A program made the translations under genes and the position numbers. Shown piece after piece: positions 25,640 through 61,263 of a DNA stretch of 64,000 nucleotides. The number at the start of each line of letters is the position of its first letter. Position 1 is the first letter of the stretch. The stretch lies in assembly GCA_905178155.1 (NCBI GenBank), contig CAJINV010000002.1:5870476-5934475 (forward strand), read 5' to 3'. Under the pieces are notes generated by a model, which was given only the letters and a program-made list of their open reading frames with translations, had not been told where the DNA came from and ran no database searches. Origin of the DNA: Amoebophrya sp. A120. Its lineage: Eukaryota; Protista; Dinoflagellata.

Positions 25640-28600
25640 CTACACGCCACCAGGAATTTTCGGCCGCTCCTCTTCCTCAGCAAAGTCCCTGCAGGCTTTG
25701 ATATGCTGTGCAAAAGCATCGTACTCGTAGTAATTGCAGTCACGCATTACAAATTTTTTTCCGAAGGTAAATCCGCATGACAAAGTTTATTTATTCTCAT
25801 GCTGAGGAAATTTGTAATGCATTTATTTATACATATACGAGTACGATACCTTTGCAATTCATACTTGAGAAAACTACACAAAACATCCTTCATGTAGCAC
25901 CACCGCTTTTCGTCTTTCACATGGCTCCGTGGCCAAGCCTATGCGTTGCAAATATGTCGGAAGCGGGAAATTTGAAAACTTGTCATGCTGCTTTGGCGAG
26001 AAGGAGAGCATCATCAACATCATCATCATCATCATGACTCAAAACTCTGCATGATGACTGCATGTTGTGAAAGAGCACGCCATAGTCTATGCGTCGATGC
26101 TGATGGATTTATTTACTTATTCTCAGGCGAAATTACACGAAAGCGTAATGAGGACTAGATGCAGAGCGATAAATGCAAATAAGTAGATAGCCACTCAAGA
26201 AATTGCCCTGCTTGGCCGCTTGCATTTGCACTCGCTTTATCAACATCCGCGATATCGTCATCGCATCACATTTTTCCAAAAACCACCTAGACATATTTGC
26301 AGTTGATAGCCCGACATGCCCGCCTGTGGCGGTCATCAGGAGGATTCCTTTGTGCGAGGCTTCCCTCGCTTGGTTCATTCTGTAGGATACGCCGCAACTG
26401 CTACTAGTACCACTTCCTGATTCCGACGTCTTCAACGCCGACAAGACGTGGTCCAAGAAACCCCAGCTGGAGCAGACCGGATCGTCGAGCGCGTGCAGAA
26501 ACAGGGTGGGACACATTTGCAGCTGGGACAGCTCGGTGCGCTGACTGGCGTAGTAGTTGGCGAGGCCCTGCAGCCCGACCCCGAACCGGTAGAAGGGGAC
26601 GGCCAGGTAGGTGTCAAAATCCGCACAGTTGTTCGCTTGCAGAATTCGCTTGTGGTCCAGCTGTAGCTCCGGAATGTGCTCCTGGGACGAGGCCTGTAGT
26701 TTCGTCCTCGGTGACGAAATGTTGCTGCTGTTATCCTTAATATCCTCTCCACTGGTAGCTGTACCCATGTGGTTTTCGTTTTCCCAAAGGTGGAAGTGGT
26801 TGGGCATGCCGATCCCGTGCAAAAACGCGTCGTCGGGGTAGTGCAGCCAATGGTCCGCTGGCGCAGATGTAGTCGTGGAATCTGTCATGCTATCCGGCAT
26901 TCGAAAGTCGGGCACCGGATTTTGGTAGTGGGGAATGTCCGAGAGCCGGATGGGTGGGATTCGCGACTGCAATCCTCGTCGTGTTTGTTCGCCTGCTGCG
27001 ACGGGATGTTGAAATTCATGATCCGGGTAGTTGGAGATGGTTTTCTTGGTTGGGGAGGGCGACGACAACGACGATGTACTGCCGCTGCCCGCTTGTTCGA
27101 CCACACCCATAAAAGGGGATGAGCTATTATTTGTTGTCGCAGGAGGCGATGTTGTGTTTTTCTTTTTTGGATCGATCTTCTTGTTCTTTATCTTCGTCCT
27201 GTTCGACTTGTCACCAGTCTGCGTCATCATCCTCTCTTCGACCAGTTTCCACCACTTTCCGAAGTTGTCTTTCAAAGCCGCAACCAGCATCGGCTGCCAC
27301 ATCCGGTGCCCCCGCTGCCGAATCATGTTCTGTAGGGTATTCTGTTGCCCCGAAACCACCACTGCACCCCGGAGTTTCAGGAAGGAGTAGTCCATGACTT
27401 GTTCTTCGAGAGCAGTAGTAGGCACGGACGTGCTGTTTGATGGTGCTGAAGCTGTTGTCGTTTTTGCAGCAGTCTCCGCAGGACATAGGGAAACTCTGTC
27501 GAACAGATTTTCCCCACAGTGGCTGAGCACCTGACTCAGAAGAATCCCGCCCATGGAAAAGCCGACGCAAAACACGTTTTCGTAGTCGTAGCCGGCATGG
27601 TACCAGAGCTTCAAAATCTCCTGCAGTGCGATGCGGACGTCCTCGAACCGCAAGGCGTTCCAGATGGAATACGAGTTTGCGATCGGCGTCACGCCCATGC
27701 CTCTTGCGTTAACGCAACAGACCGCCATCTTCTTGCGATCCCGAAACTCCTCGACGGCATCTAATACGTAGATTTCGTGGGACCCGCCGTTCAGGCCGTG
27801 TAGCAGAATGACGAGCGGCAGGGGTTTGCGCTTTTTACTAGGTTCGTTCTTGGTCGTTGCACTGTCAAAAACCCCCGCGACGTCCACCTCCGTGCTCGGG
27901 AACGTAAAATCCACCGCAATGGCTTCTTCCAGGGTCGTACTGCTGTCCTCGCAAGAAGGCGGAGATGAAGCAGTAGTGCTTTGCTGGTCTTTACCCCGCT
28001 CCACGCCGGGTCTGCCTGCCGGCACGCGGATCCAGACCCGGCAGTCGTATTTTTTTCCCTTCGGGGCCTTGTAGCAGGTGTAGGGCACCAGTGTGCAAAT
28101 GTCGCCCGTTTGCACGCCCGGCAAAAACTTGTACAGGTACTTTACCCAGAACGCCTCGTAGTTCTTCTCGTAATTGGGGAAATTGCAGTGCTCACGCCAA
28201 TAGCGGACGAAGGAGGACAGGTTGTTGGAAGATGTGGCGCTCATTCTGGTGGTGGCAGCGGTTCCGAGTTTGCGCGAGCATAAGGACGAGGGTGCGGTTT
28301 TGCTGGAAGAATAAACACCGCTGCCACTTGCGCTGTTTTCGCTGACCACCGTGGTTGTGGTCGCTGTGCTTGTATCTGCGGGGGTGGTCCTGCACCTGCT
28401 GTTGTTGGACGTACTATTCGTGCTTGATGCGGTAGTTGTAGAGAGTTTGTTCCCGTCGTTCGAAGTAGCCGTAGATGAGGATGCCGATGCTGTCGTCCGA
28501 GTGCTGGCTGTGGACGGAGTGTGGGAAATGGGGTCTGTGGAAACCATAGCAGTATTTTCCCCTGCACTTGGCTGATCCTCTTTATCGCCATCAGCTTGAG

Positions 28601-40252: not shown

Positions 40253-41299
40253 GCTTCTGTAGTAGTGACGTCTACGTGAGTGATGTACTATGCTTCATCT
40301 CCTGCTAATCCAACTCGAACTCCATCTTTTTCTTACATCTGGCAGTAACGTGGCTCCTGCGTGGGTTCTTTCTGGAGCCGCACGTGTCCTTGCGCATGGC
40401 GCTGCGGCTTCTGGCGCCCCCCCGTTGTAGCTGCGCCTCCATAGGGCGGTCTGCTTGTTGCCCCCTCTGCCGCCTTATGATCCTATTGATGGGTCTTCGC
40501 CGTCACAGCTTCGAGGCCCGCGGCCGACTGGTCGGCGAATTTGTTACGTTTTATCGAACATGCGCTTTGTTTTTTTTACATTACGCTGCAAAATTTAACA
40601 GTTCACAGGACAGAAACACAAAGAGTCGCGTCAGAAAAAAATATCGATATGGGTCAGTGGCGCTAGAAGAATGACAACAAATATGGGAAATAAAGCCTTA
40701 AGGGTTGTATATATAGAAATCCATCTCAACATAAAGGGTCGAGCGTGTCGCTAAATGACTGTGGGTGTCGATGAAACGTTTAGCAAACAATCGATGTTAA
40801 AAGGCATCAAAGGCAAAAATCTCTCACCAAAACATCGATCGATGATCGTCGTCTTCTACCCCCTTGTCCAGATGGATCGAATCTCAATAAAACGGCATTC
40901 TAGATAATCTATTCAAATTCGTTATCGTTTTCGTACCGCGATCTTCATCTTTTTGTGCGATAAGTCCAGCCCAGAGACGGATTGGCGTTTCGAAATGTCA
41001 TTTGCTTCGACTAATATTAACATCTCAGCAGGTCGTTTAACTATCACGATCATAACAAGTGCAACTGCGACAAGCTAGCGTCAGCTTGCCGTATCTGGAA
41101 GAACAATCGGAAAACTCGGGTCATCTGGCGATTTACAAACCGGTGAATATCAGTTCAAGGTAGGATCCACTTGGCTTCTTTGTTCAACATAAACATCGAT
41201 AGAGTTTACTAGTACCAAAAAAGCTACTGCACACTACACATCGTTCTCTGATGCTGTGCCCATCACTTGATTCGTCTACTACAGCACGCATCATCATGT

Positions 41300-43514
41300 C
41301 TACATTTCGGGCACGACTTCTGGACTACTGCGCCTGTGCCGCGAGCTGCCCGATTTCTTAGAAGTGGTTGAAGATCGGTTTTTTATTCCAGAAGTGTCGT
41401 TTTCCTGCTGTACTTGTTCGGAGGTTTTTCTCCCGATATGATCCCCTGAGAAAGTAGTGCCGGACTTCGCATTTTTACCCTCTGGCCCAGGTGACGATCC
41501 CTGCGAAGTTGACATCACAGTGGCGGGTTCATTATTGTGGGCCACCTGCATAAAACTCCCACCAGTCACCCCTGCAACAGAACTCTCCTTGGACGACGAC
41601 GAAAAAGTAGACTGCTTCGAACTTCGTGCGCTCGGAGCCGCACTGCTCGCTGTGGTCTCGGATTGTGCTATTACGCGCTCCTCTTCCTTGTGAAGACCGC
41701 GGGCTATCTGCGTGGTGGTGGTCGTGATCTTTTCCGGCGCTGCTTTTCTTCCAGTAGAAGTTTTGCTTCTGCTAATCATGTCCGGAGAAGCTGATGATGT
41801 CGGAGCTCCTGTAATGGATGATGCGTTCGAAGGTCTTCTCGACGTTTTGCTTTCGGTTACAATTTCATGGGCCTGACTTCTTCGCCGCGCAGGGCCGCGT
41901 GCCGAATTGTAGTTGATGCCATTGTTGACACCATTACCAGCTCTCCTCCCGCAGCTGACCGCTTTTTTGCACATTTGGATGTTCTCAATCATCTTTTTCA
42001 CCACGTAGCACTTGCAGCTCCCGAAGAAAGAGCGAATTTGAATATTGTAAGGAAAAACCCTCCCTCCCCATATCGAAAAGGCGCGCTTTTCAAAATTTGC
42101 GATGCTGATTTGTGGCCACAGATCGAGTCTGTCTTGCAAGAGAGCAAAGCCAGAGCTTCCGCCGCATTTCGCAGGCGATTTGTAATGCTGCTGCGCCAAC
42201 GGGGCAGACGTCTGCCATGCTAAGCAACTACCTCAAGCCACCCCTTTCCGGGCTTTGTATCTGCCTGCAGTGCTGTACTGCAAGACAAAGCTGATTTGTG
42301 TACGCAAATACAGCATCACAGACTTCCCCTGCGATATGGGGAGGGGGGATTTTTCCTCTTGATATTGAAAAGCGTGGGTCTGGGAGAGAACGTTCTCCAT
42401 CAAACTGGCCAAGTCCCACTGGTCCTTGTGGTGGACAATCTTTTTCGACTCCGGATCTAAATCTAAATTGATGAAAATGTCCAGCGACAAAGTGATGGCG
42501 GGAAAGAGGGAGGCGAAAGTAGAGGACGAGGTAGGGGTCGATGTGGTAGTTTTGCTAGTACCCGCTCCAGTAGAAGAAGACGACGTCAATGTCAAAGAAG
42601 ACGCACCACCCGCCTTCGCTGGCTTCGGCTGCTTCGGCCCGATTTTCATCTTCAGACGCGCTGCGACCCGCACTTTGGTTTCTTCGCTTGAATTGCTCAA
42701 GATCTGATAGTGAGACAACAATGTGTTTTGGCGTTTGGATTTCAATATTATCTCATGCGCGCACTTGTTGTTAGCGACTCTTTTGATAATTCGAATTCCC
42801 GCGGTTTGACATATACCTGAATCTCTAGAACTAGATAGAAGAAGAAGTACTTACCCAAACCAAGGAAAGAAGGCGCTTTGCTGCATATTGACATTGTTCT
42901 AGTACCTGAATCTCCGTCTCCGTAAACGGCAACAGTCTGAAGCTCTGCCACTGCGCCGCAATGTCCGTGATTCCCTTCACCGAGACGAAGGGGTCTTGGT
43001 AGGTGGCGTTGGTTGCGTAGTACCGAGAGATGAACGCCTCGTCAATGGCACGGTATCTAGACTCGTAAACCTTGAAGAACTCCCGACCTTTGTGTTCCTG
43101 ATTGGTGGCGGAGCTAGAGCTAGTAGTGTCGGAACTGGTGCTGGCATGAGGATTTTCTTTTGTCGTTGTGGTCGCGCAGCTCGCGGTACTAGTACTGATC
43201 GCCTTTGGTGCTGCAACATTTCTTCCAGTGGAGGTGGTGGGCGGTACAGCGGTGGCAGCACTTTGCCTTGAGGAATACTGCTCGTGATGTCGTGGCTCAT
43301 CTAGAGCCATGTTCGCCCGCTCCACTTCGCGCACAATAATTTGTTCTTCACTCCTGACCCTTGAAGATTTGGAAGTATTCTGCTGCATCTGCTGCTGCTG
43401 CTGCATCAAAGAATTGCGATTTAGGTGGTGAATATTCGATTTGGTGTAGGTCGCCTGTGGATTCGGGTTGCTCACCGCACGAGCACGGTGAAAACCCTGA
43501 GACGCGGAGGACAT
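41300..43514 (-). CDS. NTF2-like / SnoaL-like domain protein with disordered termini, 3 exons
   Basis: FISRYYATNATYQDPFVSVKGITDIAAQW ... LDLDPESKKIVHHKDQWD; GT-AG intron 42752-42854 and introner 42043-42364. Confidence 0.75.
42043..42364. mobile_element. Introner, 'GGAAAAATCCCCCCTCCCCATATC' family
   Basis: ~33-bp TIR; perfect TSD TTGAA; joins HAFQ to IRSFF; near full-length inverted homolog at 50440-50764. Confidence 0.92.
42752..42854 (-). other. Canonical GT-AG intron
   Basis: tgg|gtaagt...catgag|ata; frame-consistent. Confidence 0.75.
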
Positions 43515-44694
43515 TTTTTCTTTTTTTGTGCTGCGCGATCACTGAAGTACCTATTTAGACTCTCAGGTTTTTCCTCTAACAATGCAACTCACCGCCTCCA
43601 ATAGAACAGAGCTGTACGCACCGAAGACAAATAAGACTTAAGCTGCGGTCAAGGAAGCATTTTCGCAGAATCGACTTCCCGCGCCCAGCTGTCACCCCCA
43701 CAATCAGACCTTGAGTTTCCGTTATTCCCCACAATCACGGCGTCGTCAGACTTGTTGTTTCGCGTAAGAGTCTAATTTTCATGCAAGGACTTTCTAGGAG
43801 TAGGAATCGGTATAGGAAGCGCTCCTCTACTAGGTCGTAGTTTGGCTCTTGTGAAAAACCTCCTGCGAAGTACGTATGAAGAAGAAAACTGACATATTAG
43901 CAGAACATGGCTTAGTACACATGCTTTTCAGGAAGAACACAACAAGAGCGACCACATGTTTGTCGGGTTTCATTTACCGACATTTTTCGCGAAAAAAATC
44001 CTTGTTTCAAAAACGCGGCCACTTTCGTCTCGTGCAGCAAGACCACGAAGTAAATGGTACGAAGCTTTTGCTGATAAATACTCAGTATCGCCGCCTGATT
44101 GTCGTTCCTCCAGAAATGAAGTACTCATCTTCAAAAAGGCCAAAATCAAAAGTGAAAATTGCTCGGTCACTCCACCTACTTGTTAGTACCTACTTGTTCC
44201 CTTTGAAGCGATAGAGATCAGGAGTCATGTGGGTTTCGCCCCGGCAAGGGCGGGGCAAATATCAGTCAAGGATTCATTTTGATGGTTTGGATACAACAGA
44301 AAGTACAAAACTATATGAAAGCGCACGTTTACGGGACGAGAGTCACAGAGCCATTCGCTCTCCTTGTCGTGTGCTGCTGGTGCTGGAGGAAGCAGAAAAT
44401 TTCTACTTGTTTTTACCCTTGAAGATAGTTCGCACTAGACAACTAATGTGGTATTCTCGAATAAAAAACTGGGAGTCCTCGAAAGACCAAGACATATAAA
44501 CATTCTTGAGATTGCATTTTTTCAAGAATCGATATTCGGGTGGTCGCTTTCAGATCAACAGCATGCTGGCACGAAACTGTTTTAAGAGGAGAAGCACCCT
44601 ACAACTTCACGAAGTCCACGTAGGAGCGGTAGTTAATCCAATAGAAGGCTGATTATACTTGTTATCCTAGGAAGATGGACACTTGTTGTCGTCC

Positions 44695-47600
44695 TCACTG
44701 ACTCTGCACGTGATAGAGGCGGAAATCGTTCGCGTTCTGGTAGTATCAAGTGCAAAAGTGTCTGGGTCTGGAAGAGTCGTGCTGTTTTTGCATGACACAG
44801 AAGGTCTGGCATGGAAGCTCTAGCATCACAGGTTTCGAGAAGCTTCCGCATCGCAATGCCGAACCCGCACGACAAGCCCCCCATTTTGGTTCCAGAAAGT
44901 GAGCAGCTTTTGCTGCCTATGCATGAGAGATTTCTCTGTGTGCTGAAATGCGCATCACAAGTTTGTATTCTTCCAGACCCAGACATATTTGCAATCCATA
45001 GGTAGTTGCTCGCCGAACCATAGCTGTTGACGTGCGCCGCCTGCTATCAAATGCAAATATGTCTGGGTCTGGGAGATTGCGAGATTTGTCATGCTAGTGT
45101 GGCATGACTCTGAACTCTGTATTGCGTGGCCGCGAAGAGCTCTTCTTGTCTATCATGAAAAAACGCGGTTTCTCATGCGGAGTACGGAACTCAGAACCAC
45201 GAAAAAACTTGTCATGCTGGGCAGCGCATTACAGTGCGCTGACTATTCCCTTTCTTGCATCACAAGTTTCCAGACCCAGACATATTTGCGATCCGTACCT
45301 GCCCGGCAATAGGCTCCTGGACCATGTTCCTGCGCCGGTCGTCATCCTTGGGCGGCTTCCAGCACAGGGCGGCGACCAGGACGAAACAGAGGCAGATTTC
45401 CAACAGCGTCAGAAAGACCAGGCTATGCGTTGCAAATTATATCGAATTAGTTTTTCTTGGGTCGTCGGGAACGTAAATGGAAATTGTGACAACCACCGCC
45501 ACCACACATATGGTTATAATAATCTGTCTCACAAAAACAAATGAAAATACCAACCTGTCAGCACGGTAGAGCAACAAAGGCTCTGCTCTGGTGCCGCGCA
45601 GAGACAGAGGGGTTCTTATGCAGGATAGGCATCTTGATCTTTTTCAAATAGTAGTCGCGCTCAACCTGGAACAAAATTGCAGCTCTGCTATGCATTGCGG
45701 ACATCGTGCTGTGGTGTGTGATTGAAAACCTGCATGACAAGAAATCGCTTACAATTAATTTTTTCGACCCAAACACCGATATTTGCGACGACGTGTCTGA
45801 CGTGATACAGGTTGACCGTAATTTGCGACGTTTGCTTGTGCAAAACCGCACGGAAAACTTCGGTATCAAGTGCAAAGGTATCGCACTGCGTATAAATCGC
45901 AACATAAATCAATGCTTTCAGAAGGGAAAATCATGGAGATGCTCGTGCCTCTATATGCTGGTTCAGGTAAGAGTTACAATTTAGTACAGTTACGATACTT
46001 TATTTCCTGCAGTGCATATTCAGGGGTGATCGTCACGTCGGGCGCAAGCTCCACGAGCAGCACGTCGGTGAGAAATCGCTGATAAACTTCCGCGAAGTTG
46101 TCCGCCAGGCAGTCCGTGTAAGTTTGAAGGAAGTCCAACATCGAGACGCCTTGGTATCAGGTAGAAAAATAAAACCAAGCACAATACCGTCGCTCTCTGC
46201 GAATTCTAGTACGCTCCTTTGCTATCTTCAAATACGGCTAGATGATTGCTATTCCTTTTTTTTCCAGATGGATTGCATCAGTGCATCGTCGTACGTGCCC
46301 GATAGTATAATGCCTTTTCTTCTTCATGTGCGCATGACAGCAGCAGCGACGGTAATGAGGGAAGTCCTTTTCTACACCATATAAACCAGATGCGCTGTGA
46401 TGGTGAGAAGAAGATTAGGTTCTGCATGATTCGTCTATGTTTTCATCGCAATTCCACATTATGGAAGATGTGCATCGAAATCGATTTTGCACTTTCTTGA
46501 AGATCTTTGACCGTGTAGTTGTGCCACCGACTGTTACACGACCTTGTTTTGATGTTAAAAATCGAACGGATGAACAGGAGGTGCTGCGCAATGGTATATT
46601 TATAAATTGAAATTGCATCAATTAAACTTGGTTGTACGTAGATCCCACTCCCTACGTAGATCACGAGCAGCACGAAGACGAAGGGAGCAGCCTTTTTCAT
46701 CTTGGCGGACGCGGATCCAACCAACGCGCAGACAGTCATGACGAGGAAAAGCAAGGCCGCCCACTTGAGTGCTGTGGTGATTTCTCGGAGCAGAATCTCA
46801 ATGGGCTTGGACAGCACCTCCTCGTGGAGCCAGGGCGTCAGCTCCGCCGCATTACACGTGTCGCTGAACTTATCGTGAGAAAAAAGCGGCTCACTGTAAA
46901 GTAAGGATTTTGCACGTTTTGCATTACAACTTCCTTACATATGACAAAGCAAACTTACCATGCGTACTTCCTAAGGGAAAACACGCTGAGAAACCCAATG
47001 TCTTGCATGTGTAGCAAGACAAATGAGTATGCGTTGCATTCTTCTATGCATCACAAGTTTATGTTTACAGTGAAACAGTTTTTTCTTACGATAGAACCGA
47101 TTGAGTTCACTCGCGACGTGGTACTGTTCCCACTTTTATGCACCGCAAATATGTCGTCACGTGGGTCTGGGAAAAGAATATTACGACCAAGGATCTGTAT
47201 AAATAGTGCGCGTTTCGAACGACGCCGAAAACTGTCATGCACGAAGCGGGTTTGCAATTGCATCATGCAGAAGCAGATGGACCACGAATTCTATATTTAT
47301 CATATGCAGGTAAGTACGCAGTGTGTACTACCCTTCAAAAAATTTGTGATGCTTGGACAGGTTACTGGAATTCGTTATCGTTTCTTCGGTGTCACCGGGA
47401 GTTGCGACGGACTAGCGACCAGACCTTGACATATTTGCCGTGGATAACTTTTCGATGATCACCGCGTAACTCACAGTGGTCAAGCACAAGACCGAGAACA
47501 AAGCACCGGCCACAGAGTATGGGACTCTCAAGCGGTACATTGTTCGCTGTTACATGATTATTTCTTGTCATGCAGAATCACTGTCGCACTTGTTCACACG

Positions 47601-47889
47601 CCCGCGCTATTTCGCATGGCAAGTAGAAGTTCTCCACCTACTAACTAGCATTGGAGTCACCTACTCCGACTTCAGTGCCCAATCTATGATCATGCAAGGA
47701 AGACGGCGCGCAAGTTCCCCAGTTACAGTTTCCCTTTTGCTGGTCCTGCATAGCAATAACACGTAAAATCAGCGACCACTGTAACGTTTGAGAGTTGTTC
47801 ACCCATACAGAGACGCTATGGAAACAGCCAAAGGCGCCCAGGAAGAGGTGCCGCCAGTCGGCATTGGGATTGCAGCAACAGAGCACCAT
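44695..47889 (-). CDS. Multi-pass (about 4 TM) membrane protein of unknown family, paralog A, ~11 exons
   Basis: Reconstruction: MVLCCCNPNADWRHLFLGAFGCFHSVSVAGALFSVLCLTTVSYAVIIEKWEQYHVASELNRFSDTCNAAELTPWLHEEVLSKPIEILLREITTALKWAALLFLVMTVCALVGSASAKMKKAAPFVFVLLVIYVGSGIY-RIWFSVSMLDFLQTYTDCLADNF...TITPEVFRAVLHK...YYLKKIKILVFLTLLEICLCFVLVAALCWK...YHVQSQ*. Frame stays open across nine element removals and one GT-AG intron. Confidence 0.75.
44744..45000. mobile_element. Introner, TIR family 1
   Basis: TIR; perfect TSD GGTAG; closely similar along its length to 50118-50379 and 56819-57076. Confidence 0.92.
45045..45297. mobile_element. Introner, TIR family 1 (2955-like)
   Basis: TIR (right end decayed to GTA); perfect TSD CCTGC; can be read as GT-AG on the minus strand. 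Confidence 0.9.
45424..45627. mobile_element. Decayed introner, probably spliced as GC-AG (45423-45630)
   Basis: Ends tatgcgttgcaaa and ttatgcaggata; the frame requires element+4, which matches at|GCCTATC...CATAG|c. Confidence 0.65.
45689..45807. mobile_element. Highly decayed introner candidate
   Basis: tatgcattgc...gtgata ends, internal gcatgacaa; +5 restores frame; alternative GT-AG intron 45666-45816 also fits. Confidence 0.5.
45864..46018. mobile_element. Introner, 59582-like family
   Basis: tatcaagtgcaaaggtatcg / tacgatactttatttcctgcagtgcata; TSD TTCGG/TTCAG; joins TITPE to VFRAVL. Confidence 0.82.
46155..46381. mobile_element. Decayed introner candidate
   Basis: tatcaggtagaaaa / ttttctacaccata IR; TSD lost; +5 restores frame. 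Confidence 0.55.
46395..46637 (-). other. Canonical GT-AG intron, position shared with paralog B
   Basis: tac|gtacaa...ctaatcttcttctcaccatcacag|cgc (branch-like CTAAT plus pyrimidine tract); removes the in-frame TGA at 46443. Confidence 0.65.
46871..47093. mobile_element. Introner, 2010-like family
   Basis: tatcgtgagaaaaaagcggctcactgtaaa / tttacagtgaaacagttttttcttacgata; TSD GAACT/GAACC; joins LNRF to SDTCNA. Confidence 0.85.
47137..47446. mobile_element. Introner, diverged family 1
   Basis: tatgcaccgcaaatatgtc...ggtctgg / ccagacc...gacatatttgccgtggata; perfect TSD ACTTT. Confidence 0.87.
47518..47807. mobile_element. Introner, 'TATGGGACTCTCAA' family
   Basis: IR with an indel; perfect TSD CAGAG; end homologous to 56498-56739; joins FHSVS to VAGALF. 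Confidence 0.87.
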
Positions 47890-49369
47890 GGTGTCGATCG
47901 TTGTTTTCACAGGCAGGCCGGGTGATGTTCTCCTATTTGTACGGATGTTGATGTTCTTTTCAATCCAAACGAACGTAGTTTTCAATCCAAACGAACGTAG
48001 TGTTCGTTGTGGCAACTACTGCTTTGTTTTCTTGTCTTCAGGGAAAATCAAAAATCTACATTACCCGCGAAAGGGAATGGAACGCTTTTTGTCCTATGAA
48101 GTAAGGTCATCTCCGACGAAGTTTCACCTCAATATTGCTTCGTTCCAAGGACCACATGGAAAACAAGAAGGACTCTAGCGTGGAGAAGCGCTTGCATTCG
48201 CAAAACTGTGGAGAAATGCGTACATAAGCACGCCGGAGAAAAATGGTTGGAAAACACCAGATCAGAAAAACGCTGCGAGAAGCAAACAAGATCCTCTTTA
48301 TTTTGCATATAAATATCCGCGATCCATCTTGATAAAACAAATATTGCAGGTGATGCTTGCGGTTCCAGACCCGGAGCCCAACAATGTTTCGGAGAAAATG
48401 TCGAATATGCGAACACGACATTTTCTTTTCCACCAGAAAAAGAAATCACATTGATAAGTGAATCATACTCCGTCGCGAAAATGCGTGTGCACACTACAGC
48501 ACTCGACTGCAGCTGGTAAAGCTAAAGCCCCGCTCCCGGAATGATTGTATGATCGCGATATTTGGTTCTTGCCGATAACGAGGAAAAAAGTTGCATCAAT
48601 TCATATAGTTCATTATGTGTGCCGCCTTGGTGCGCAACAAATCGATAAGGGCTCTTGATGATGTACATGTTCCGCGTTCTTGGAGGACACAACGCTCCTC
48701 CGCCGGGTTCTCTGGTTCATTTTGAAAGAGTTCCAAGACCAGCCACAGGGCGATTCCTAGCCTGCTGTCACTGGTCGAGTCTCATCCATTGACGGAAGAA
48801 ATACGATCATTAGCAAGTTGACGTACTTACGTAAAAATATTCATTGAAGGCCAAAACTAGTATTGTCAAAAGGCAAGTGTAAAGCACAAACGCAGTACCA
48901 GTAGAGTGGTGCTAGAGGTATCGAAGAAGATGATCTGCTGATCAGTTTCAAAAGTAGTCGGTCGCGATCACTAGATATTTCGTTAGACTTAGATGTAAGT
49001 TCTAATAAATTTCCAAAAGTGAAATAAGGTCAACAAGAAGTCAAGTATTCGATGAGAACAGAAGTGTTTTCGGTTTTACACAGCGGTTTCCAGTCCGCTG
49101 AATGCTGTTGGTTGTTGTGCATGCTATCTTCATCATCGAAATTACGTAAAAGTCGAAGGGCTATTTTCTGTCAGTCGTTTATAGAGCTTTTATAGTCGAG
49201 TGCTGGTAGATCTAGAAGATAAATCGTGTTCATTAGATTTGTGTTTCTTTGTGGTGCCTCGTTGTCACTCTGGTACTATTGCATCACTTGATGAGTGGAC
49301 GAGCAGTGCAGCTGCGCTGCCCCTGCCGACAAGTGCGTGATGTTTATTTCCCTGCTCTGAATAAAACAA

Positions 49370-52044
49370 TCAGGACCGGTCCTTGACGTGCGGATGCGTC
49401 CAGTACCCTTTAATATCATTTCCATGTGCAACAGCAGCACGAGCAGCTACTCCGCCTCCACCTGCGGGTCCGGCATGCTCCCTTACCGTGTGGGGAAATG
49501 CGTAGTACTGGTCCGGATGGCCTTGATGTTCAACCTGAGAAGTGGTGGATGAGTAAACCGTCGTCGTCGCGGCCGGAAGAGCTGCAGTGCCGCCAGCTTC
49601 ACTCGTCGTGCCGACAATCAGAGGCTCGCATTGCTCGAAAGTGGTCTGGTCTTGCACCACGGTGACGACTTGTTGATTCTGCTGATGACCATACCCGTAG
49701 TCGTAGTACTGGTGCACGTTCACGTCCTGCGGCTGATACCGCGCTCCGTGAAAATCATGCTGCTGTTGCGCCATAACAGGCTGGTGGACGAGAATGTTGG
49801 TTCCGTCCTGGCTGTATCCTGCGCAAAAGCACTATCGCACTCGTATTGTCAAAATTGCAAGCTTGTTGGTGTTCCATCGTGAAACTTGCCTTCTTTATTC
49901 CTGAAACGGAATGTTGACACATTCAATAATCCAGTTAGTCATCGATTTGGAATCTTCGGAACTACAACAACAAATTGTTCATACGTAGTTTACGATAGTT
50001 TGCAATGCGTAGGTCTCCGGCTTCAGGCAACTCCTTCCTGCCGCAGCACTTGGCCAAGAGCATAATCGGCACGGCCCAGACCAACCCCTGGGACAGAAAG
50101 TGCAGGAAGCCCCTACCTATCAAATGCAAAAATGTCTGGGTCTGGAAGAGTCATGCTGTTTTTGCCTGACGCAGAAGGTCTGGCATGCAAGCTCTAGCGC
50201 CACAGGCTTCCAGAAGCTTCCACTATGCTGACTCCGCATCACAAATCCGCCATTTTGGTGACAGAAAGTGGGCAGCTTTTGCTGCCTAAGCATGGGAATG
50301 GGATATTTTTCTGTGTTCTGAAATGCGCATCACAAGTTTGTTTGTATTCTTCCAGACCCAGACACTTTTGCAATTAATACTACCCCCCAAATGCCCGGGC
50401 TGGGCGAAGAATTCCAGGATGTACCGGGTTTCTTCGGTATATCAAAAGGAAAAATCCCCCCTCCCCATATCAAAGTGGAAATCTGTGACGCAGGATTTGC
50501 GTACACAAATCGGATTTGTCTTGCGGTGGAGGACTGCAGACAGACACAAAGCCCGGAAAGGCGTGGCTTGGGGTAGGTACTTAGCATGGCAGACGTCTGC
50601 CCTAGTAGCGTAGCAGCATTACAAATCGCCTGCGAAATCATGCAGCGGAAGCCCTGGCGTTGCTCTCTTGCAAGACAGACTCGATTTGTGGCCACAAATC
50701 AGCATCAAAAATTTTGAAAAGCACGCCTTTTCGATATGGGGAGGGAGAATTTTTCCTCACAATACGGTAGGCGTCAAATTTGCGGGAATGTGCATCCCAA
50801 ACAGAGCGGGCCCATTCGCGATAAACCAAGGGAGGACCACGTCCATAATGGTATCAAAGGAGTATTTGTCCGAGGCACAGGGCGCCCAAGCTTCGAGAAC
50901 TTTCGCAATCCACACGTACGCGAGAAAAATCTGATAGATTTTTTTACGTTTGGATGGTGAACACTTCATCTCACGAGTTTTATTCGCTCATATGTCAAAG
51001 GAAAACGACGCAAATGGCGTGACGTCGAGAGTAAGCAACATTCTACGCATGGCGTTACTGGTCTTCACTAGGTCTAGGTCGAGAGAAGATCGAGCGGAGC
51101 CATATTGCATCTAATTTATTACGTAAGAACAATGACATTATTCTTACCGTCACTCCCAGCGCGACGTAGAGCACCAGTAGAGCAAACACCGGCCACCAGG
51201 CTTTCTCCATTTTCCGACTGGGTTGTGAAAGTGCACAAATCCCCCTTTCGTGGTCCTAATTACGACTCCAGCAGCAGGAGACGCTGTTGCCTCTCAGGCC
51301 ATGCTGTAGTCCCATCTGCCACGCAAGAGCTACAAATTATGACTATGTCTTCTGTGGTTTCTGATGCTACTCAAGATCTCCTGCCCGAGTCAACGTCGAA
51401 ACGGGGCTAACAACAATTGACGAGTGGGACGACCACTAGTGGGAGTTCTTGTGCACTCTGATATACCCGCACCGACATTCGCGAAAACTGACATGATGAC
51501 GGAAACGGCGAAGCCCGCGCAGAGGAATTTTTGCAGCATAACGACGAGGGCGTGGCGGCTCTTCGACAAGACGTTGTTCCAGATTTGCGGCGTGATTTCC
51601 GAAACGTCGCAGTCGGCGTCGAAGTCCCGTATCACGTTGATCCAGGGGAATCTTCGGCCAGGAAAGTTGATGTGATCATGTGAGTTCTTTGTGAATCATG
51701 CGTGGCGGTGAATTAATATAATACCTTCTGCATGACAAACAAGTCGCTGAGCGCTTCGTCGACGTGCACGACAGCACTGAGACTAGCTCTACAAGAAGCT
51801 TCCATTCATCTTATCTCTTGCCCACATCGACGAAATTTTCTGCAACGCATACGTAAAACGACTGCGCGATCCTATTGCCGTCCAGCAACACCGTGCTGAG
51901 CAACGGTATGGAGAGGAAATGAAAACTGGTTTCGGTCGTTTTGGAAATGGGTTCTTGGGCACGAAAGCAAAACATCATGCTGCACATAACGTTTTGCCTG
52001 TCACTAGTACTAGTAGTAGTACTACTACGACGCCCGCAAGGCAC
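49370..52044 (-). CDS. Multi-pass membrane protein of unknown family, paralog B, ~7 exons; start codon uncertain
   Basis: ...FHFLSIPLL...RDFDADCDVSEITPQIWNNVLSKSRHALVVMLQKFLCAGFAVSVIMSVFANVGAGSRKMEKAWWPVFALLVLYVALGVT-IFLAYVWIAKVLEAWAPCASDKY...LTPTEETRYILEFF...GFLHFLSQGLVWAVPIMLLAKCCGRK...DQDGTNILVHQPVMAQQQ...; aligns by eye with paralog A. Confidence 0.75.
49815..50011. mobile_element. Decayed introner, 8772-like family
   Basis: tatcctgcgcaaaagcactatcg / tacgatagtttgcaatgcgta; +5 joins EAGD to QDGTNIL. Confidence 0.75.
50118..50379. mobile_element. Introner, TIR family 1
   Basis: TIR; perfect TSD CTACC; a GT-AG reading is possible. Confidence 0.92.
50440..50764. mobile_element. Introner, inverted homolog of 42043-42364
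   Basis: TIR; perfect TSD CGGTA; joins LTPT to EETRY. Confidence 0.92.
50931..51147 (-). other. Canonical GT-AG intron, position shared with paralog A
   Basis: acg|gtaaga...ctatcag|att, phase 0. Confidence 0.75.
51224..51463. mobile_element. Decayed introner
   Basis: tgtgaaagtgcacaa / ttgtgcactctgata IR; +5 gives VGAGSRKM, the same length as VGSASAKM in paralog A. Confidence 0.65.
51676..51852 (-). other. Intron with one introner-like end (GT-AG 51687-51852 or decayed element)
   Basis: tac|gtatgcgttgca end as at 25940 and 45424; internal gcatgacaa; both readings restore frame. Confidence 0.5.
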
Positions 52045-55440: not shown

Positions 55441-56314
55441 AGCTAAAGCCTAGTACGTTTGCAGGAAAAAAAACAAAAAGGAAAAGTCGAAGTGATCAGG
55501 TAAGCATAGCACTGTGACACAAGGGGGAGGAAACACAACTCAACCTACCATAAAATTCGAACGAAAATAACATGGAATCTGTCCACCAACATCAGTTTTT
55601 CAGGGGTTTTTGCTCCGCGGAAAGATTTCGTATTTTCTGGTGTATGATCTTCTGGAAGGGTGCGAATAGCGCAAAAGCTCATTATCAAACCGCCGAAACC
55701 ACCAGCCGTAAAAGAGATCTTGGACACAACCCGTCCCGCAGGGAGCAAATTGAACAGTCGTACACCGCTTGTATCAGATAGAAAGACGACGTTGCACTCG
55801 CGTTCTTATCAATAGGGCTGGAATAAAAATGTCGCTTCATCTGTTCATTTGGTCATCGTGGCGGAATGAAGTTTGATGTTGAGAGGGACGAGGGTATAAA
55901 AACAAGCTGTCAACAATTTCTGACTGTCGCACGGGGCGGTGCGCAAAGAGGTCTAGCCTGAAAAGGAGGTTGTCGACAAAGTCGAAGCCCGGCTCGGGTA
56001 GGTAGTCGTAGTTCTATTGCAGCAGGTCTACCAGGCAGTCGGGGTTTTGTTGTTCATTCCCATTCGGTTTCACTCTCGGACGTTCATCTTTCGTAGAAAC
56101 CACCTACCAAAAGGGAAACAGTCGTTAGATTTGTTCAGCACAATTCGTCCTGCACCAAGTAGTCTTGGCACCACGACCCGCGTCCGCCGGTACTATTGTG
56201 GCCCTTACGACCACCACTCCCAAACACCATCTTCCAACCAGCTCCATCATCCGGCACTGCAGCAGCGTCCAGCAGCTACGCCAAAACGTTCGTCGCGACC
56301 AGCTCCTACCCTCT

Positions 56315-58260
56315 CTATTGCAAGTCCAGCACCGCCATCTTGTTCGCCAACTCATCCGCCGAAGACAGAAGTGAGTAAGGACACTCGTACTGCTTCATTA
56401 TGGTCGAAAATTTACTCTCTTCCGCCGGGAAGTCGTTCGCCAACGAGTGAGTGTACTTTGCAAGGACCACGGCGGCTTCGAACACCTCACAACTAATTAT
56501 GGCGTTCTCAAATGTTATATTCCCAACTGTATACATGATTTGTCATGCACAATGAGCATCAAGGTCCACACCTGGAAGCTACCTCGCATGACAAATTTAA
56601 GAACAGGAAGGGTCAAACAGCATGGGAATCTGTGCCGAATTTGTAATGCAAGAGTTGCGAGATTCGGCATTTCCCTGTTGCCATTCTTGCATCACAAATT
56701 CATGCAACAGTTGAGAATGTAACAATTGAGAGTCCCATACTAATTTCCACCACCTCGGTGAACTCGAAGTAGTGCGTTGTTGCCGAGTTTTTCGCGGTTT
56801 GGATCTTGTAGCACACGTTATCAAATGCAAATATGTCTGGGTCTGGATCTGGAAGAGTCATGCTGTTTTTGCATGACACAGAAGGTCTTGCATGGAAGCC
56901 CTAGCATCACAGGTTTCGAGAAGGCTCCGCAATGCCTAATCCGCATCACAAATCCCCCATTTCGGTGGCAGAAAGTGGGCAACTTTTGCTGTCTATGCAT
57001 GAGAGATTTGTGTGAGTTCTGAAATGCGCATCGCAAGTTTGCACTCTTCCAGACCCAGACATATCTGCATTTGATACACGTCCGCCAAATCCGACTCGTG
57101 GGCCTGGTTCAGGGCTTTCCGTAAACTCGCGTCGGAAGGACGCATGCGGGCGAAGGTCGACGGCGACTTGAAAGCAAGAGGGATTACCTGAATTTTATCA
57201 ACAGGCCGTTTTGATAGCATCTTTTGGTCAACAAGCGGTCAAGCTGCATCGAGGTCATGATTTCCAACAGGACTTCTACACTCAGCATGATGACATCCAC
57301 ATTACCTTCTAAAGGCAGAAACACACCATTTTTTACCACGTCTTCCCAGCTTTCCCCGGAATCCTCCTCGTCCAAATCGTCTGGATTAGGTTTGATTTTC
57401 AGCAACAACTTCTTTTCTCTCGTATTTGACTTCTCCTCGTCTAACACCAGCCACACATCCGCCTTGCCCAAATGCTCGCTGTTTGAACCTTTCCCACTTG
57501 GAGGCCCTTTCTGCTCCCAGAGCTCGCCGCAACAGAGCAGACAACTCGTACACCTGCCGAATAAGAACTCCTGTAATAACCGCTTTGCCTTGTTGTAAAT
57601 GGTCGTCGTCACGCTATTGGAGTACGCAAACGGCGCACCCTGCTGGACGCGTTTACAGAGTTGCGGCTGCACGGAGAGGGTTTGCAAACCGAGGTTGAGT
57701 AGAGAGATCACCGCATTGAGCTTGGGCAGCATCTCGGCGATCCGCTCTCGCCTGTCCTTCCCGTCTTTCTTCGTCTTTAGCCACTTCGTCCACGATTCTT
57801 TCGAATCGGGCCGCTCGTCGTCCTCATCCGAGCCAATGTCGAGAATCTCCTCCACCTTGCGGATCTGGAAACGGATCAGCTTGGTACCTGATAGATACGA
57901 TAGGTTTACGTTCATACTCGGTTCGAAATTTCGCACAGAAGAACAAGCTGCGGATAGTACTTGAAATTTTTCACCCTCACAACATCAAAAACAACAAGAA
58001 AAACATTTATCTTGATCATCACGCAGCGCTGTAAAATATCAGAGAAAAATACTCGGCAGCAAGAGCGGCAACGCCTCCTCTCTTATCAGTAGTTTCTCCG
58101 CAACCTGGACTGGGATTGTCAAGGCTTCCAAGGTCTTCCAGAGCACATATCCCTCCTCCTCCACGCCGTTGAAGGATTGCAGGAAGTCGATCGCCCGTTT
58201 GGTCCCGGTGGCCACCTTAAAAATCGCCCCGGCCGCAGCGGAGACACCGAACATCGCCAT
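56315..58260 (-). CDS. Hypothetical protein with N-terminal helical domain, 5 exons
   Basis: ORF pieces join through GT-AG introns 57888-58052 and 57188-57336 and introners 56819-57076 and 56498-56739: ...ESDLADV-CYKIQTAK...FTEVVEIS-CEVFEAAV... Confidence 0.75.
56498..56739. mobile_element. Introner, 'TATGGGACTCTCAA' family
   Basis: TIR tatggcgttctcaaatgttatattc / gaatgtaacaattgagagtcccata; perfect TSD CTAAT. Confidence 0.9.
56819..57076. mobile_element. Introner, TIR family 1
   Basis: TIR; perfect TSD CACGT. Confidence 0.92.
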
Positions 58261-58809: not shown

Positions 58810-61263
58810 TCATTTTGTTTTCTTTTTCTTCCGTGCACTAGCATTTTTGTTGTTTTTGCTTCCAGGAGAGGCAGTTTCCTGCAGAAGTAGATCCTCGTCT
58901 TTCATTTTAGCTGAAATCGGGCTTGGTAAGAAACGACCCGCGTGTTCAATTTGTCGCTTTTTTGCAGACGATGAAGATGCAGCAGAAGTCCCACCTCCGG
59001 GTGTACTAGTTGCGAGGTAGTGAACCCCCGACCTGGCGCTGCTGACGAAAGGCGAATGATGATCTTCCAGGCCTTCCTCTTCCTCGTCCCGGTCGCCTGA
59101 AAAAAGAGCTCCGTCGTCGCTTTCTGGACCCCCGCGTGCTGTTCCTGTCTTCCCAACGTTCTTGTGTCCCTTTCCCTCTGCTCCGACGTGCAACAAGCTT
59201 CCGCCGAGAATTGCGAAGACTAACCCGAATAAGTGGTACCAACCGAAGACTTTCGGGAAGATAACGTAGGACAAAGCGAAGGTTATCATCTTCCTGCACC
59301 CACAAATCGCGTTTGTTCTCGCCGCGTCGTACTCCTTCGTGATTTTAAAAATGATTCGCAAGCCCCAGAAGGACAGGAAATTGTCGAGGAACATCAGAAT
59401 CAAAACCTTGTTCCCAGTTTGCATCGGAATTCCGAGTCTGAAAATTGCCGGGTTCGAGTCGTGCGGCTTCGCGTAAAAGAAATTCTGCAATCTCGCGAGG
59501 TAACTAGATGAACTGTTTTGGAGGTATGTTGAATCTCCTGTCGCGACGAGGCCGGAAAGCAAGTAGTCCTTTCGGACTTCGTATGCAATGCAAAAGCATC
59601 GTACTAGTATAAATTGCATTACAAATTGGCTTAGCATTACAAATTGAATTTGTATTGCGGATTTGCCTTAACAGAAAGATCTGTAATGCATAAATGCAAT
59701 TAGTACGAGTACGATACTTTTCTTGCAGTGCATACTTCGACGCCGAGAAAATCGTCCCAGCTGAACCCTGCAAGGGTCAAAATATCCAAGAAAAAAACTG
59801 TGTTAGTTTAACTTTCTTTGGTTGGCAGCGTCACAAATTTGCTCTACATGACGGAGAAAACCTGTCATGCGCGGCTTGTAAGGGAAAACACACATGAAAA
59901 GAGGACTTCATGGTTGTCTGGCATGACAGGTGTAACTCCGTTGCATGTTCTGCATTACAGAGTTTTTACACTTACACAGATTTTTTCTTGCATACGACAC
60001 CCGCTCACTGTACCAGTAGTACCAGTTCTGGAACTCATTTGCGAACAGCATGGTGTAGCAGACCAGCAACACAAATCCGACGGAGTACTGGATCATCATC
60101 AGCAGATCTACTTCGCGACCTTTGGTAGAAGTAGTAGGTTGCGGCGCACGATGTTGACTTGCGGCTCGTGTAGCAAAAGGAAAAGCTTGTGTCTGTTTCC
60201 TCTTCTGCTGCAAAAACACCTGCTGAATGTTGACGCCAACGGATGCGCAGCAGATGTTCAACAGCATTAAGGCCAGGCCGTAGATGGAAAACCTGGGGGA
60301 CTCGAACCGCTCCCCAACTCCAAACACGGTGAGACCGAAGAAAACAGATAGACTGCCGATGTATTCCTGAGACGTGATAATCTTCTTGTTCGCTTCAACA
60401 TTCATCTCATCGCTCTGTCGCCGTCCAGATGAAGAAAGGACCATCCCGTACAACCGCCTTCCCAGCAGAATGCAGGGGACTTTTGCGCTCTTGCACATGG
60501 CTCCGAAGGTGAAAGATAAATGTTCGAAGGCGGAGGTCCCAGCGCCATGCGAAATCATCAGTAAAACGCCGGAGAGGAAGGCAGGGTCGTGCTCTTCGAC
60601 TTGTAAGATCGAAGATGGAACTCGTGTTGCAGTTGTAGAAGAGGGCGAGCTCTGCTGATTTTTTGCTAATGTATGTGTAGTGAGTTGTGTTGACATCTTC
60701 CCTTGATGTTGTATCAAATTTTTGACGAATGTCAGCCTGTTCCAGACGGATTTTCGCACCGCGTAGTTCCATTCATCCCAAAAACCTCGGTTGTTCCAAT
60801 TGCACAACGGGATCAACAAAACGTACAAACCGAACTCAAACAAGCAGTAGACCCACCCGAACCGGAAACCGTCGTGTTGGAAAACCGCTTCGGTAAGCAG
60901 CGCCGCTTGCCCGTGGAAGAGAAACACGATGAACGCGAGTTGCAGTAAACGAACAGTGCGCTGGTGGTGGGTTGATGGTGCTGCAACAGCTGCTAAAGAA
61001 TGAGAGCAGCTCTGCTTGGCAGTTTGCGTAGTGAGCGATTTTGTACTAGCTTTATTAGGCGGAAAAAAAGCCATGTTTTTGCTGCTAGCTGCACCTCCGG
61101 TGGGGGTCTGCTCGCGTCTTCTTGAGCGGTGCACCTGTCTTGCGCCACCGGTTGTACCAGTCGTGTTTTTCGCAGTAATTTGAGTTGCCGGGGAGGAGGC
61201 TGAGGCGCCCTGTGGCGTACCGCGCTTGCGCGCTTTCCCGTGGCCGTTGCGGGTAGTGGACAT
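58810..61263 (-). CDS. UAA-family nucleotide-sugar/PAPS transporter (SLC35B3/PAPST2-like), 3 exons
   Basis: Multiple TM helices; FRFGW, MCKSAKVPCILLG, SPRFSIYGLAL, KEYDAA...RKMITFALSYVIFPKVFGWYHLFGL. Joined through 59783-59994 and 59582-59734 (each +5): SERVS-TLAGFSWDDFLGVE-VRKDYLL. Confidence 0.85.
59582..59734. mobile_element. Introner, 'TATGCAATGCAAAAGCATCGTACT' family
   Basis: TIR; perfect TSD CTTCG. Confidence 0.9.
59783..59994. mobile_element. Introner, 2010-like family
   Basis: tatccaagaaaaaaactgtgt / acacagattttttcttgcata; TSD CAAAA/CGACA decayed; +5 restores frame. Confidence 0.8.

What the first reader, a model, noticed from the sequence alone, without database searches (positions are those of the whole stretch)
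42043..50764. Orientation-independent introns: the same element sits in both directions in same-strand genes
Seen: 42043-42364 and 50440-50764 are near full-length reverse-complement homologs, and both interrupt minus-strand genes with exact frame restoration. The pairs 2955/3261 and 8772/14507 are also inverted. Established: spliceosomal introns rely on strand-specific donor, branch and acceptor signals. Inference: removal here is guided by the symmetric TIR stem that brings the two TSDs together, reminiscent of euglenid nonconventional introns, or the element is excised from DNA.
Basis: partly seen in the sequence, partly recalled or inferred. Interest (0 to 1): 0.8.

Follow-up and report, generated by a model that had tools for sequence, protein, structure and literature searches.

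The report
Two-way transposon introns in Amoebophrya
Two copies of a known transposon-derived intron of the marine parasite Amoebophrya sit in opposite directions in two genes and both are cut cleanly out of the RNA without GT-AG signals, likely because the element's mirror-image ends give the same splicing cues either way round.

Summary
The main observation holds. 42043-42364 and 50440-50764 are 88% identical reverse complements with 5-bp target-site duplications (TSDs), in minus-strand genes. RNA-type contigs drop each element plus exactly 5 nt (50440: direct joint, 4 of 4 runs; 42043: by contig arithmetic, 2 of 2). Neither has a GT/GC-AG pair giving that mRNA. The window is Amoebophrya sp. 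A120, and these are its published introner elements. In 188 related copies, orientation is about 50:50. The side pairs are weak: 2955/3261 is unresolved, and 8772/14507 share only one end. The proposed mechanism needs correcting. Elements whose TSDs have decayed are still removed, with a fixed cut: 1 nt before TAT, 4 nt after ATA. The ends also show strand-specific constraint (5' T fixed; A at -7 fixed), and there is no sign of selection on the RNA stem. DNA excision is unlikely. The best reading is a divergent spliceosome using signals carried in the mirror-image ends; a Euglena-like separate machine is the main rival. Two-way introners are known in Polarella and Aureococcus. I did not find the cut rule in print.

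The parts
42043..42364 (.). Introner copy F1 (TAT...ATA, 322 nt), TSD TTGAA at 42038-42042 and 42365-42369; predicted intron 42039-42365 on the minus strand, ends AT..CA
   Evidence: (contig arithmetic in 2 of 2 runs)
50440..50764 (.). Introner copy F2 (325 nt), reverse complement of F1, TSD CGGTA; predicted intron 50436-50765 on the minus strand, ends GT..CC
   Evidence: (joint 50434>50765 in 4 of 4 runs)
41166..43626 (-). Host gene of F1: exons 43626-42906, 42703-42365, 42037-41166; 569-aa open frame after splicing
42704..42905 (-). Canonical GT-AG intron that fixes the strand of the F1 host
48474..51465 (-). Part of the host gene of F2 seen in RNA contigs; 277-aa open frame after splicing
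50931..51147 (-). Canonical GT-AG intron that fixes the strand of the F2 host
46155..46381 (.). Old introner with unmatched flanks (0 of 5); fixes the cut exactly: 46151-46382 removed
   Evidence: (table 5c, 4 of 4 runs)
51224..51463 (.). Old introner, flanks 1 of 5 matching, 3' triplet changed to ACA; cut register 0 or 1
   Evidence: (loose ends shown for 3 of 4 runs)
49815..50011 (.). Old introner, flanks 2 of 5 matching, 5' triplet TAC; cut register 0-2
45864..46018 (.). Introner, flanks 4 of 5 matching; cut register 0-3
44744..45000 (.). Introner, B-type TIR, removed in RNA (262 nt)
45045..45297 (.). Introner, B-type TIR, removed in RNA (258 nt); the predicted register gives GT-AG here
45424..45807 (.). 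Introner with weak TIR, removed in RNA (389 nt); minor retained form also seen
46871..47093 (.). Introner removed in RNA (228 nt)
47137..47446 (.). Introner removed in RNA (315 nt)
47518..47807 (.). Introner removed in RNA (295 nt)
50118..50379 (.). Introner, B-type, removed in RNA (267 nt); 55-60 nt exon separates it from F2
56498..56739 (.). Introner; removal inferred by contig arithmetic together with 56819
56819..57076 (.). Introner, B-type, opposite in orientation to 3261; removal by contig arithmetic
2955..3207 (.).
3261..3522 (.).
8772..8836 (.).
14507..14672 (.).
25702..25863 (.). Introner, inverted relative to 59582; no RNA test
59582..59734 (.). Introner, inverted relative to 25702; no RNA test
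2010..2222 (.). Further introner (others without RNA test: 25940-26308, 39636-39915, 59783-59994)

Best explanation
These are two copies of a known Amoebophrya A120 transposon-derived intron (introner), inserted in opposite directions in minus-strand genes and both removed from the RNA with exactly 5 flanking bases; the cut is likely set by the mirror-image ends, which would give a divergent spliceosome the same donor-like start and the same branch-like A either way round. Steps: (1) A non-autonomous DNA transposon with TAT...ATA ends inserts in either direction and duplicates 5 bp. The anatomy and the even orientation are shown; transposition is inferred. (2) The gene is transcribed with the element (retained forms seen for one element). 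(3) The RNA is cut 1 nt before the first UAU and 4 nt after the last AUA, counted in the direction of transcription. This is shown exactly at one element and is compatible with all 15 tested. Because 1+4 equals the 5-bp TSD, the original mRNA is rebuilt whatever the flanks are. (4) In this register intron +2 is always U, +3 nearly always A, and an invariant A lies at -7, often in a UUGAU context just after a U-run. I infer U2/U6-type two-step splicing with that A as branch point and the 3' site set by distance, not by AG. The TIR stem may help by bringing the ends together. Step 4 is untested. Odds by part: identity and two-way RNA removal about 0.95; fixed register about 0.8; spliceosomal branch chemistry about 0.55.
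For: Organism: a window protein is 100% identical over 501 aa to a record named Amoebophrya sp. A120. The end motif matches the published TAT+7+AAA in 36 of 48 window ends and 339 of 376 ends in other loci. RNA: 15 of 15 elements tested lose element+5 nt (10 by direct joint in 4 of 4 runs, 1 by letters-between in 4 of 4, 1 by loose end in 3 of 4, 3 by contig arithmetic). Register: 46155 exactly 1; 51224 0-1; 49815 0-2; 45864 0-3. Orientation: among close pairs (80% or more) 186 same and 208 opposite in host sense; 17 of 20 clusters hold both directions; closest opposite pair 98% identical. End asymmetry in 192 elements: 5' triplet changes 0, 1, 7 at T1, A2, T3; 3' triplet changes 0 at A(-7), 3 at T(-6), 4 at A(-5); Fisher p 0.0014. 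A DNA-level or purely symmetric process would not favour one end by transcription direction. Precedent: Giardia introns use [G/C]TATGT and a branch point fused to the 3' site (PMC10711314, passage). A120 keeps U2, U4, U5, U6 and 83 of 89 spliceosomal proteins, with no U1 snRNA found (PMC7789003 section 10).
Against: No lariat, branch or knock-down data; nothing here shows which machine acts. Intron +1 and -1 are free: G before TAT 51 of 188, AG at the predicted 3' site 18 of 188, both 4 of 188. That is far from normal spliceosomal chemistry. The G bias seen in the window (12 of 24, p 0.012) did not replicate. A YTRAY match at -7 is present in only 9 of 23 window elements. The exact register rests on one element, with three giving ranges. 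The asymmetry rests on 15 variant ends, on strands called by a codon model (18 of 19 window calls right, trained on this window; 45 of 47 multi-call loci agree). All RNA evidence is assembled contigs from one sample of one study, with RNA status guessed by the tool. The 188-192 outside copies have no RNA test.
Confidence: 0.55

Rival explanations
1. A separate, non-spliceosomal system, like the one for Euglena nonconventional introns, reads the paired UAU/AUA ends of the hairpin with fixed unequal spacers (1 and 4 nt), cuts and ligates.
For: Both F copies fold into long stems that join their ends (z -6.6 and -7.5 against shuffles). Flanks are free of GT and AG. The Euglena code has the same form: CAG/CTG with 3-nt and 5-6-nt spacers (PMC12501133, abstract and passages). 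U1 snRNA was not found in A120. The fixed register and the end asymmetry fit such a machine too.
Against: No sign that the stem is selected in the sense strand: G-U 182 against C-A 229 mismatches, and the sense duplex is more stable in 87 of 188. In the window alone whole-element folding did lean to the sense strand (16 of 23, p 0.02). Elements with weak stems (45424, 45864, 46155; -12 to -19 kcal/mol) are still removed as the main form. The fixed bases are those a spliceosome uses (+2 U, +3 A, a late A). No purine preference at the first exon base (103 of 188), unlike Euglena.
Confidence: 0.35
2. The elements are excised from DNA (somatically or as element-free alleles), and the RNA copies the empty allele.
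For: TIR and 5-bp TSD anatomy suits a transposase. The DNA joint table was cut (15 shown, 774 hidden), and contigs drop rare variants, so minor empty alleles are not excluded.
Against: DNA contigs cross element-exon junctions at single-copy depth 24-30 (39799-42091 enters F1 by 49 nt; 50729-56644 enters F2 by 36 nt). None of the 15 DNA joints shown was an empty-site join. RNA contigs retaining 45424-45807 exist at low depth. The cut is staggered inside both flanks and three informative elements exclude the mirror register.
Confidence: 0.03
3. Each orientation uses its own cryptic GT-AG sites, so these are ordinary introns.
For: Two of the 14 elements can be read as GT-AG (45045; 50118 at another register). 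One minor GT-AG isoform, 45797-45998, appears in 1 of 4 runs.
Against: No GT/GC-AG pair gives the observed mRNA for F1 or F2; 12 of 14 elements have no GT-AG reading in any equivalent register.
Confidence: 0.02
4. The joints are reverse-transcriptase template switches across a hairpin between direct repeats, or assembly artefacts.
For: Strong hairpins flanked by 5-bp repeats are classic substrates (own knowledge). Only contigs, from one sample, were seen.
Against: 46155 has no direct repeat yet is skipped at one position in 4 of 4 runs. The joined form is the main contig, it restores ORFs, the elements hold stops, and 167 of 259 outside copies would shift the frame if kept.
Confidence: 0.02

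Closest known systems
Amoebophrya A120 introner elements (Farhat et al. 2021, PMC7789003; read: sections 5, 10, 11, 16, term passages, supplement passages)
   Same: Same organism, same end motif (TAT, 7 variable, 3 or more A), direct repeats (5 bp in their Fig. S19 legend), hairpin, non-canonical borders, RNA support, length near 240 nt.
   Different: Not a different element. The paper calls the splice position variable or unknown. Term searches of its text found no statement on element orientation, strand, lariats or a branch point. Figures could not be seen.
Polarella glacialis introner-like elements and Aureococcus anophagefferens introners (Roy et al., bioRxiv 10.1101/2020.10.14.339549, passages; Huff et al. 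2016 not held, known only through that preprint)
   Same: TIR transposons with TSDs that make introns in either orientation.
   Different: Those carry or recruit GT/GC/GA and AG sites from the element or TSD and show an orientation bias. Here neither site is needed and orientation is near even.
Euglena nonconventional introns (Nomura et al. 2025, PMC12501133; abstract and passages)
   Same: Non-GT-AG borders, paired ends, suspected MITE origin, palindromic motif with fixed unequal spacers.
   Different: Motif CAG/CTG with 3 and 5-6 nt spacers and a purine at the exon start, against TAT/ATA with 1 and 4 nt and no purine bias. Unrelated lineage.
Fritillaria borealis non-canonical introns (review PMC11282704 and PMC13326754, passages)
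   Same: MITE-derived introns with TIR and TSD, non-GT-AG, handled by a U2-type spliceosome.
   Different: They keep preferred dinucleotides (AG-AC, AG-AT) and a conserved U1.
Giardia spliceosomal introns (PMC10711314, passage)
   Same: 5' motif [G/C]TATGT; branch point fused at a fixed short distance from the 3' end.
   Different: They end in AG, the branch A is at -8, and they are few and not transposon-derived.

Membership tests
Amoebophrya A120 introner element | Lies in the A120 genome | tested here: met
   100% identity over 501 aa to a protein named Amoebophrya sp. A120
Amoebophrya A120 introner element | End motif TAT + 7 variable + at least 3 A | tested here: met
   36 of 48 window ends; both ends of F1 and F2 by sequence
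Amoebophrya A120 introner element | 3-5 nt direct repeats at the borders | tested here: met
   5 bp; exact in 196 of 259 outside copies
Amoebophrya A120 introner element | Repeated family | tested here: met
Amoebophrya A120 introner element | Removed from RNA with non-canonical borders | tested here: met
   (contigs of one sample)
MITE (non-autonomous TIR transposon) | TIRs, constant TSD length, short, many copies | tested here: met
   (5-bp repeats 196; 3-bp 2; 4-bp 1)
MITE (non-autonomous TIR transposon) | Cognate autonomous transposase | not testable with these tools
   no genome held; Farhat reports none in A120
Canonical U2 spliceosomal intron | GT/GC donor | tested here: not met
   F1 has none in any register; G before TAT 51 of 188
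Canonical U2 spliceosomal intron | AG acceptor | tested here: not met
   (18 of 188)
Canonical U2 spliceosomal intron | Branch-point A and lariat | tested here: inconclusive
   A at -7 unchanged in 192 of 192; YTRAY there in 9 of 23; lariats not testable
Canonical U2 spliceosomal intron | Dependence on U2/U5/U6 | not testable with these tools
   needs experiment
Euglenid nonconventional intron | Non-GT-AG borders with paired ends | tested here: met
   (pairing is predicted)
Euglenid nonconventional intron | N3-CDG ... CHG-N5-6 signature | tested here: not met
   end profile is TAT..ATA with 1 and 4 nt spacers
Euglenid nonconventional intron | Purine at first base of the downstream exon | tested here: not met
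   103 of 188, like neighbouring positions
Euglenid nonconventional intron | Excised as circular RNA | not testable with these tools
   contigs only
Polarella/Aureococcus two-way introners | Intron formed in either orientation | tested here: met
Polarella/Aureococcus two-way introners | Splice dinucleotides carried by the element or recruited from the TSD | tested here: not met

The most novel reading that the evidence does not exclude
Amoebophrya A120 runs a U1-less spliceosome with a new code that ignores both terminal dinucleotides: it cuts 1 nt before UA, branches at the A of the closing AUA and counts to the 3' site. Any TAT...ATA transposon with a 5-bp duplication is then a perfect intron at any site and in either direction, which would explain tens of thousands of harmless insertions.
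Probability: 0.45. Interest if true: 0.78.

Novelty: already known. Interest (0 to 1): 0.45.

Why it matters
The element class is published, but how A120 removes about 30,000 non-GT-AG introns is an open question, and the paper left the splice position undefined. Decayed target-site duplications resolve it to a single register, and the end asymmetry names one candidate branch nucleotide. Both are directly testable, genome-wide from existing RNA-seq and at the bench by lariat mapping. If the spliceosomal reading is right, it shows how far the spliceosome can drop its terminal dinucleotides and how a transposon can become an orientation-free, site-free intron.

Tried and rejected
Run search: no RNA holder listed on record. 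X3-X6 are taken as RNA because they skip GT-AG introns that DNA run X1 holds; X1 may be the source of the assembly. Parts without RNA cover (for example 53407-54073) are not interpreted. G-before-TAT bias: 12 of 24 in the window, absent in 188 outside copies; rejected. G-U versus C-A stem test: null in the window (42:30), slightly reversed outside (182:229). Register from stop codons in 47 outside copies with TSD mismatches: one stop, at register 3 only; uninformative. The phase lines were a script bug, corrected (phase 0/1/2 = 88/41/59). My first placement of the canonical intron near 57184 was off by a 4-nt repeat; corrected to 57188-57336. Rfam: 0 matches in the window. Homolog searches with the UCH and UAA proteins and the atlas gave no named close relative. 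Earlier findings of the scan: nothing in 3 look-ups. Huff et al. 2016 was not held. Literature search was swamped by unrelated papers. 71 of 259 outside elements had no strand call and were left out of the orientation and flank counts; 45 of 128 loci were left out's triplet count.


Full report
OBSERVATION. The two named elements are real and inverted: 88.3% identity over 326 nt in reverse complement. With the ends trimmed, the interior scores 358 reverse against 42 direct, with a shuffle maximum of 24. Each runs TAT...ATA, has about 30-nt TIRs with mismatches at positions 4-7, and has an exact 5-bp TSD. The window holds 24 such elements (9.4% of its length) plus a degenerate one at 8772. Of 17 ORFs of 350 aa or more, 15 are on the minus strand. 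The side pairs are weaker than claimed. 2955/3261 scores 43 direct and 42 reverse. 8772/14507 share only one end. 3261/56819 and 25702/59582 are clearer inverted pairs.

RNA EVIDENCE. The run search listed no holder on record as RNA. Four runs guessed as RNA (X3-X6, one sample, one study) skip GT-AG introns that DNA run X1 holds, so I treat them as transcript contigs. Laid on 43900-51400, all four join 50434 to 50765, a skip of 330 nt, which is the element plus one TSD. Record coordinates, shown for 3 of the 4 runs, leave no extra letters. For 42043 the joint table was filled by DNA repeats. In X3 and X5, however, one contig ends a piece at 42037 and resumes at 42906 with 339 nt between. That is exactly 42365-42703 plus removal of the GT-AG intron 42704-42905, and it gives a 569-aa frame. 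Both elements contain stops in the host frame. No GT/GC-AG pair yields either mRNA. In all, 15 of 15 elements with RNA cover lose element+5 nt: 10 by direct joint, 1 by letters between, 1 by loose end, 3 by arithmetic.

DNA EVIDENCE. X1 contigs cross element-exon junctions at the single-copy depth of 24-30. Only one junction of each F copy is bridged by 31 nt or more, and 774 joints were hidden, so rare empty alleles are not excluded. A low-depth RNA contig retains 45424-45807 in all four runs, so at least that element is transcribed.

IDENTITY. A window ORF matches a protein named Amoebophrya sp. A120 at 100% over 501 aa. Farhat et al. describe A120 introner elements with ends TAT + 7 variable + at least 3 A, 3-5 nt direct repeats and hairpins: 29,850 copies in 1954 families, splice position undefined, U1 snRNA not found. 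The motif fits 36 of 48 window ends. The elements are therefore a known class in a known genome.

ORIENTATION BEYOND ONE PAIR. A TIR 30-mer found 128 loci in another assembly, with 259 elements, 196 exact 5-bp TSDs, and removal lengths spread over all three phases (92/67/100). A codon model trained on this window called the host strand for 188 (18 of 19 window calls right; 45 of 47 multi-call loci agree). With the window's elements added, close pairs are 186 same and 208 opposite in host sense; the pairs are not independent. 17 of 20 clusters hold both directions, the F type splits 4 to 3 relative to 42043, and one opposite pair is 98% identical. These copies have no RNA test; their removal is inferred from open frames on both sides.

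THE CUT REGISTER. Intact TSDs hide the cut, but decayed ones show it. At 46155-46381 the flanks match at 0 of 5 positions, and the RNA removes 46151-46382 exactly: 1 nt before the first TAT and 4 nt after the last ATA in the direction of transcription. 51224 allows register 0-1, 49815 allows 0-2 and 45864 allows 0-3; all 15 are compatible with 1. So matching TSDs are not needed for removal. They only make the result seamless, since 1+4 = 5. This also counts against template switching. Applied in silico, the rule restores long ORFs at untested elements with poor flanks, such as 25940 (1325+42 codons) and 59783 (426+270), but not clearly at 8772.

WHAT IS READ. The flanks are free: G before TAT 51 of 188, C after ATA 50 of 188, AG at the 3' site 18, GT-AG 4. 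A G bias seen in the window did not replicate. The terminal triplets are not symmetric in host sense. In 192 elements found with a symmetric, relaxed rule, the 5' triplet changes at T3 (7) but hardly at T1 or A2 (0, 1). The 3' triplet changes at its outer bases (4, 3) but never at the A that lies at -7; Fisher p 0.0014, or 0.0004 with three window cases. I formed this hypothesis from the window cases before the count. Both F copies fold into end-joining stems, as any TIR element would. G-U versus C-A counts and sense versus antisense duplex energies give no sign of selection on the RNA stem in 188 copies, though whole-element folding leaned to the sense strand in the window (16 of 23). Weak-stem elements are still spliced.

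MECHANISM. Because TIRs read the same from either end, two-way splicing does not by itself argue against strand-specific signals. The fixed bases, U at +2, A at +3 and a late A after a U-run, are the ones a U2/U6 spliceosome uses (own knowledge). Giardia offers a precedent for a [G/C]TATGT donor and a branch point at a fixed short distance from the 3' end. I therefore favour a divergent spliceosome with a distance-set 3' site (0.55). The free +1 and -1 bases and the likeness in form to the Euglena code keep a separate machine as a strong rival (0.35). Which machine acts is inferred, not shown.

NOVELTY. Introners that work in either orientation are reported for Polarella and, by citation, Aureococcus, where splice dinucleotides are still used. 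Methods in Gozashti et al. 2022 allow for opposite-orientation insertion. I found no statement of orientation, fixed register or branch candidate for Amoebophrya. Searched: 7 literature searches and term look-ups in PMC7789003 (text and supplement), PMC12005148, PMC12130899, PMC11282704, PMC9860276, PMC11453091, PMC12787238, PMC13326754, PMC12621601 and PMC13149111. For these I saw passages only, except the four named sections of PMC7789003. Subscription papers (Huff 2016, Roy 2023, Henriet 2019), figures and bioRxiv supplements were not seen and may hold more.

VERDICT. A real, RNA-supported feature of a published element class. The follow-up adds a testable cut rule and a candidate branch point. 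Interest 0.45.

Noticed in passing
window 17361-21259 (-): Gene with an N,N-dimethylformamidase beta-like domain (PF20254). After the self hit, the listed relatives are 33-45% identical and the named ones are mostly bacterial; possible horizontal transfer, no tree made.
   Followed up: partly
window 46383-46394 (-): 12-nt micro-exon between an introner and a canonical GT-AG intron, present in 4 of 4 RNA runs.
   Followed up: yes
window 45797-45998 (-): Minor cryptic GT-AG joint running from inside one introner into the next, in 1 of 4 runs at depth 11.
   Followed up: partly
window 45393-45837: Low-depth RNA contigs retain the weak-TIR element 45424-45807 (depth 5-11 against 42-134 for the spliced form), the only retained element among the pieces shown.
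   Followed up: partly
window 43998-48102 (-): One gene carries 8 introners and 1 canonical intron, with exons as short as 12, 38 and 39 nt; 312-aa open frame with hydrophobic stretches.
   Followed up: partly
window 42704-42905, 50931-51147, 46395-46637: Three of four canonical introns examined have T at -6 (two end CTATCAG), as the introners do; too few to weigh.
   Followed up: no
window 8740-8900: Short element at 8772 with the direct repeat displaced by 2 nt; the junction between the 849-aa and 1095-aa ORFs is unresolved.
   Followed up: partly
window 36012-36370: Degenerate 30-33 nt coding repeat inside the 1995-aa ORF.
   Followed up: no
window 53001-54300: 70% G+C block with a 471-aa plus-strand ORF and no Pfam match, in an otherwise minus-strand region.
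   Followed up: no
window 51907-52141: Further candidate element, flanks 1 of 5 matching; not tested.
   Followed up: no
window 54517-55449, 11521-14505, 26133-30284, 58810-59667 (-): Host genes with Pfam matches: ubiquitin C-terminal hydrolase, fibronectin III repeats, alpha/beta hydrolase, UAA transporter.
   Followed up: no
L001-L128: An assembly in the metagenome collection holds the same introner families, up to 93% identical to window copies over their length; the window outside the elements had no match in these loci.
   Followed up: partly
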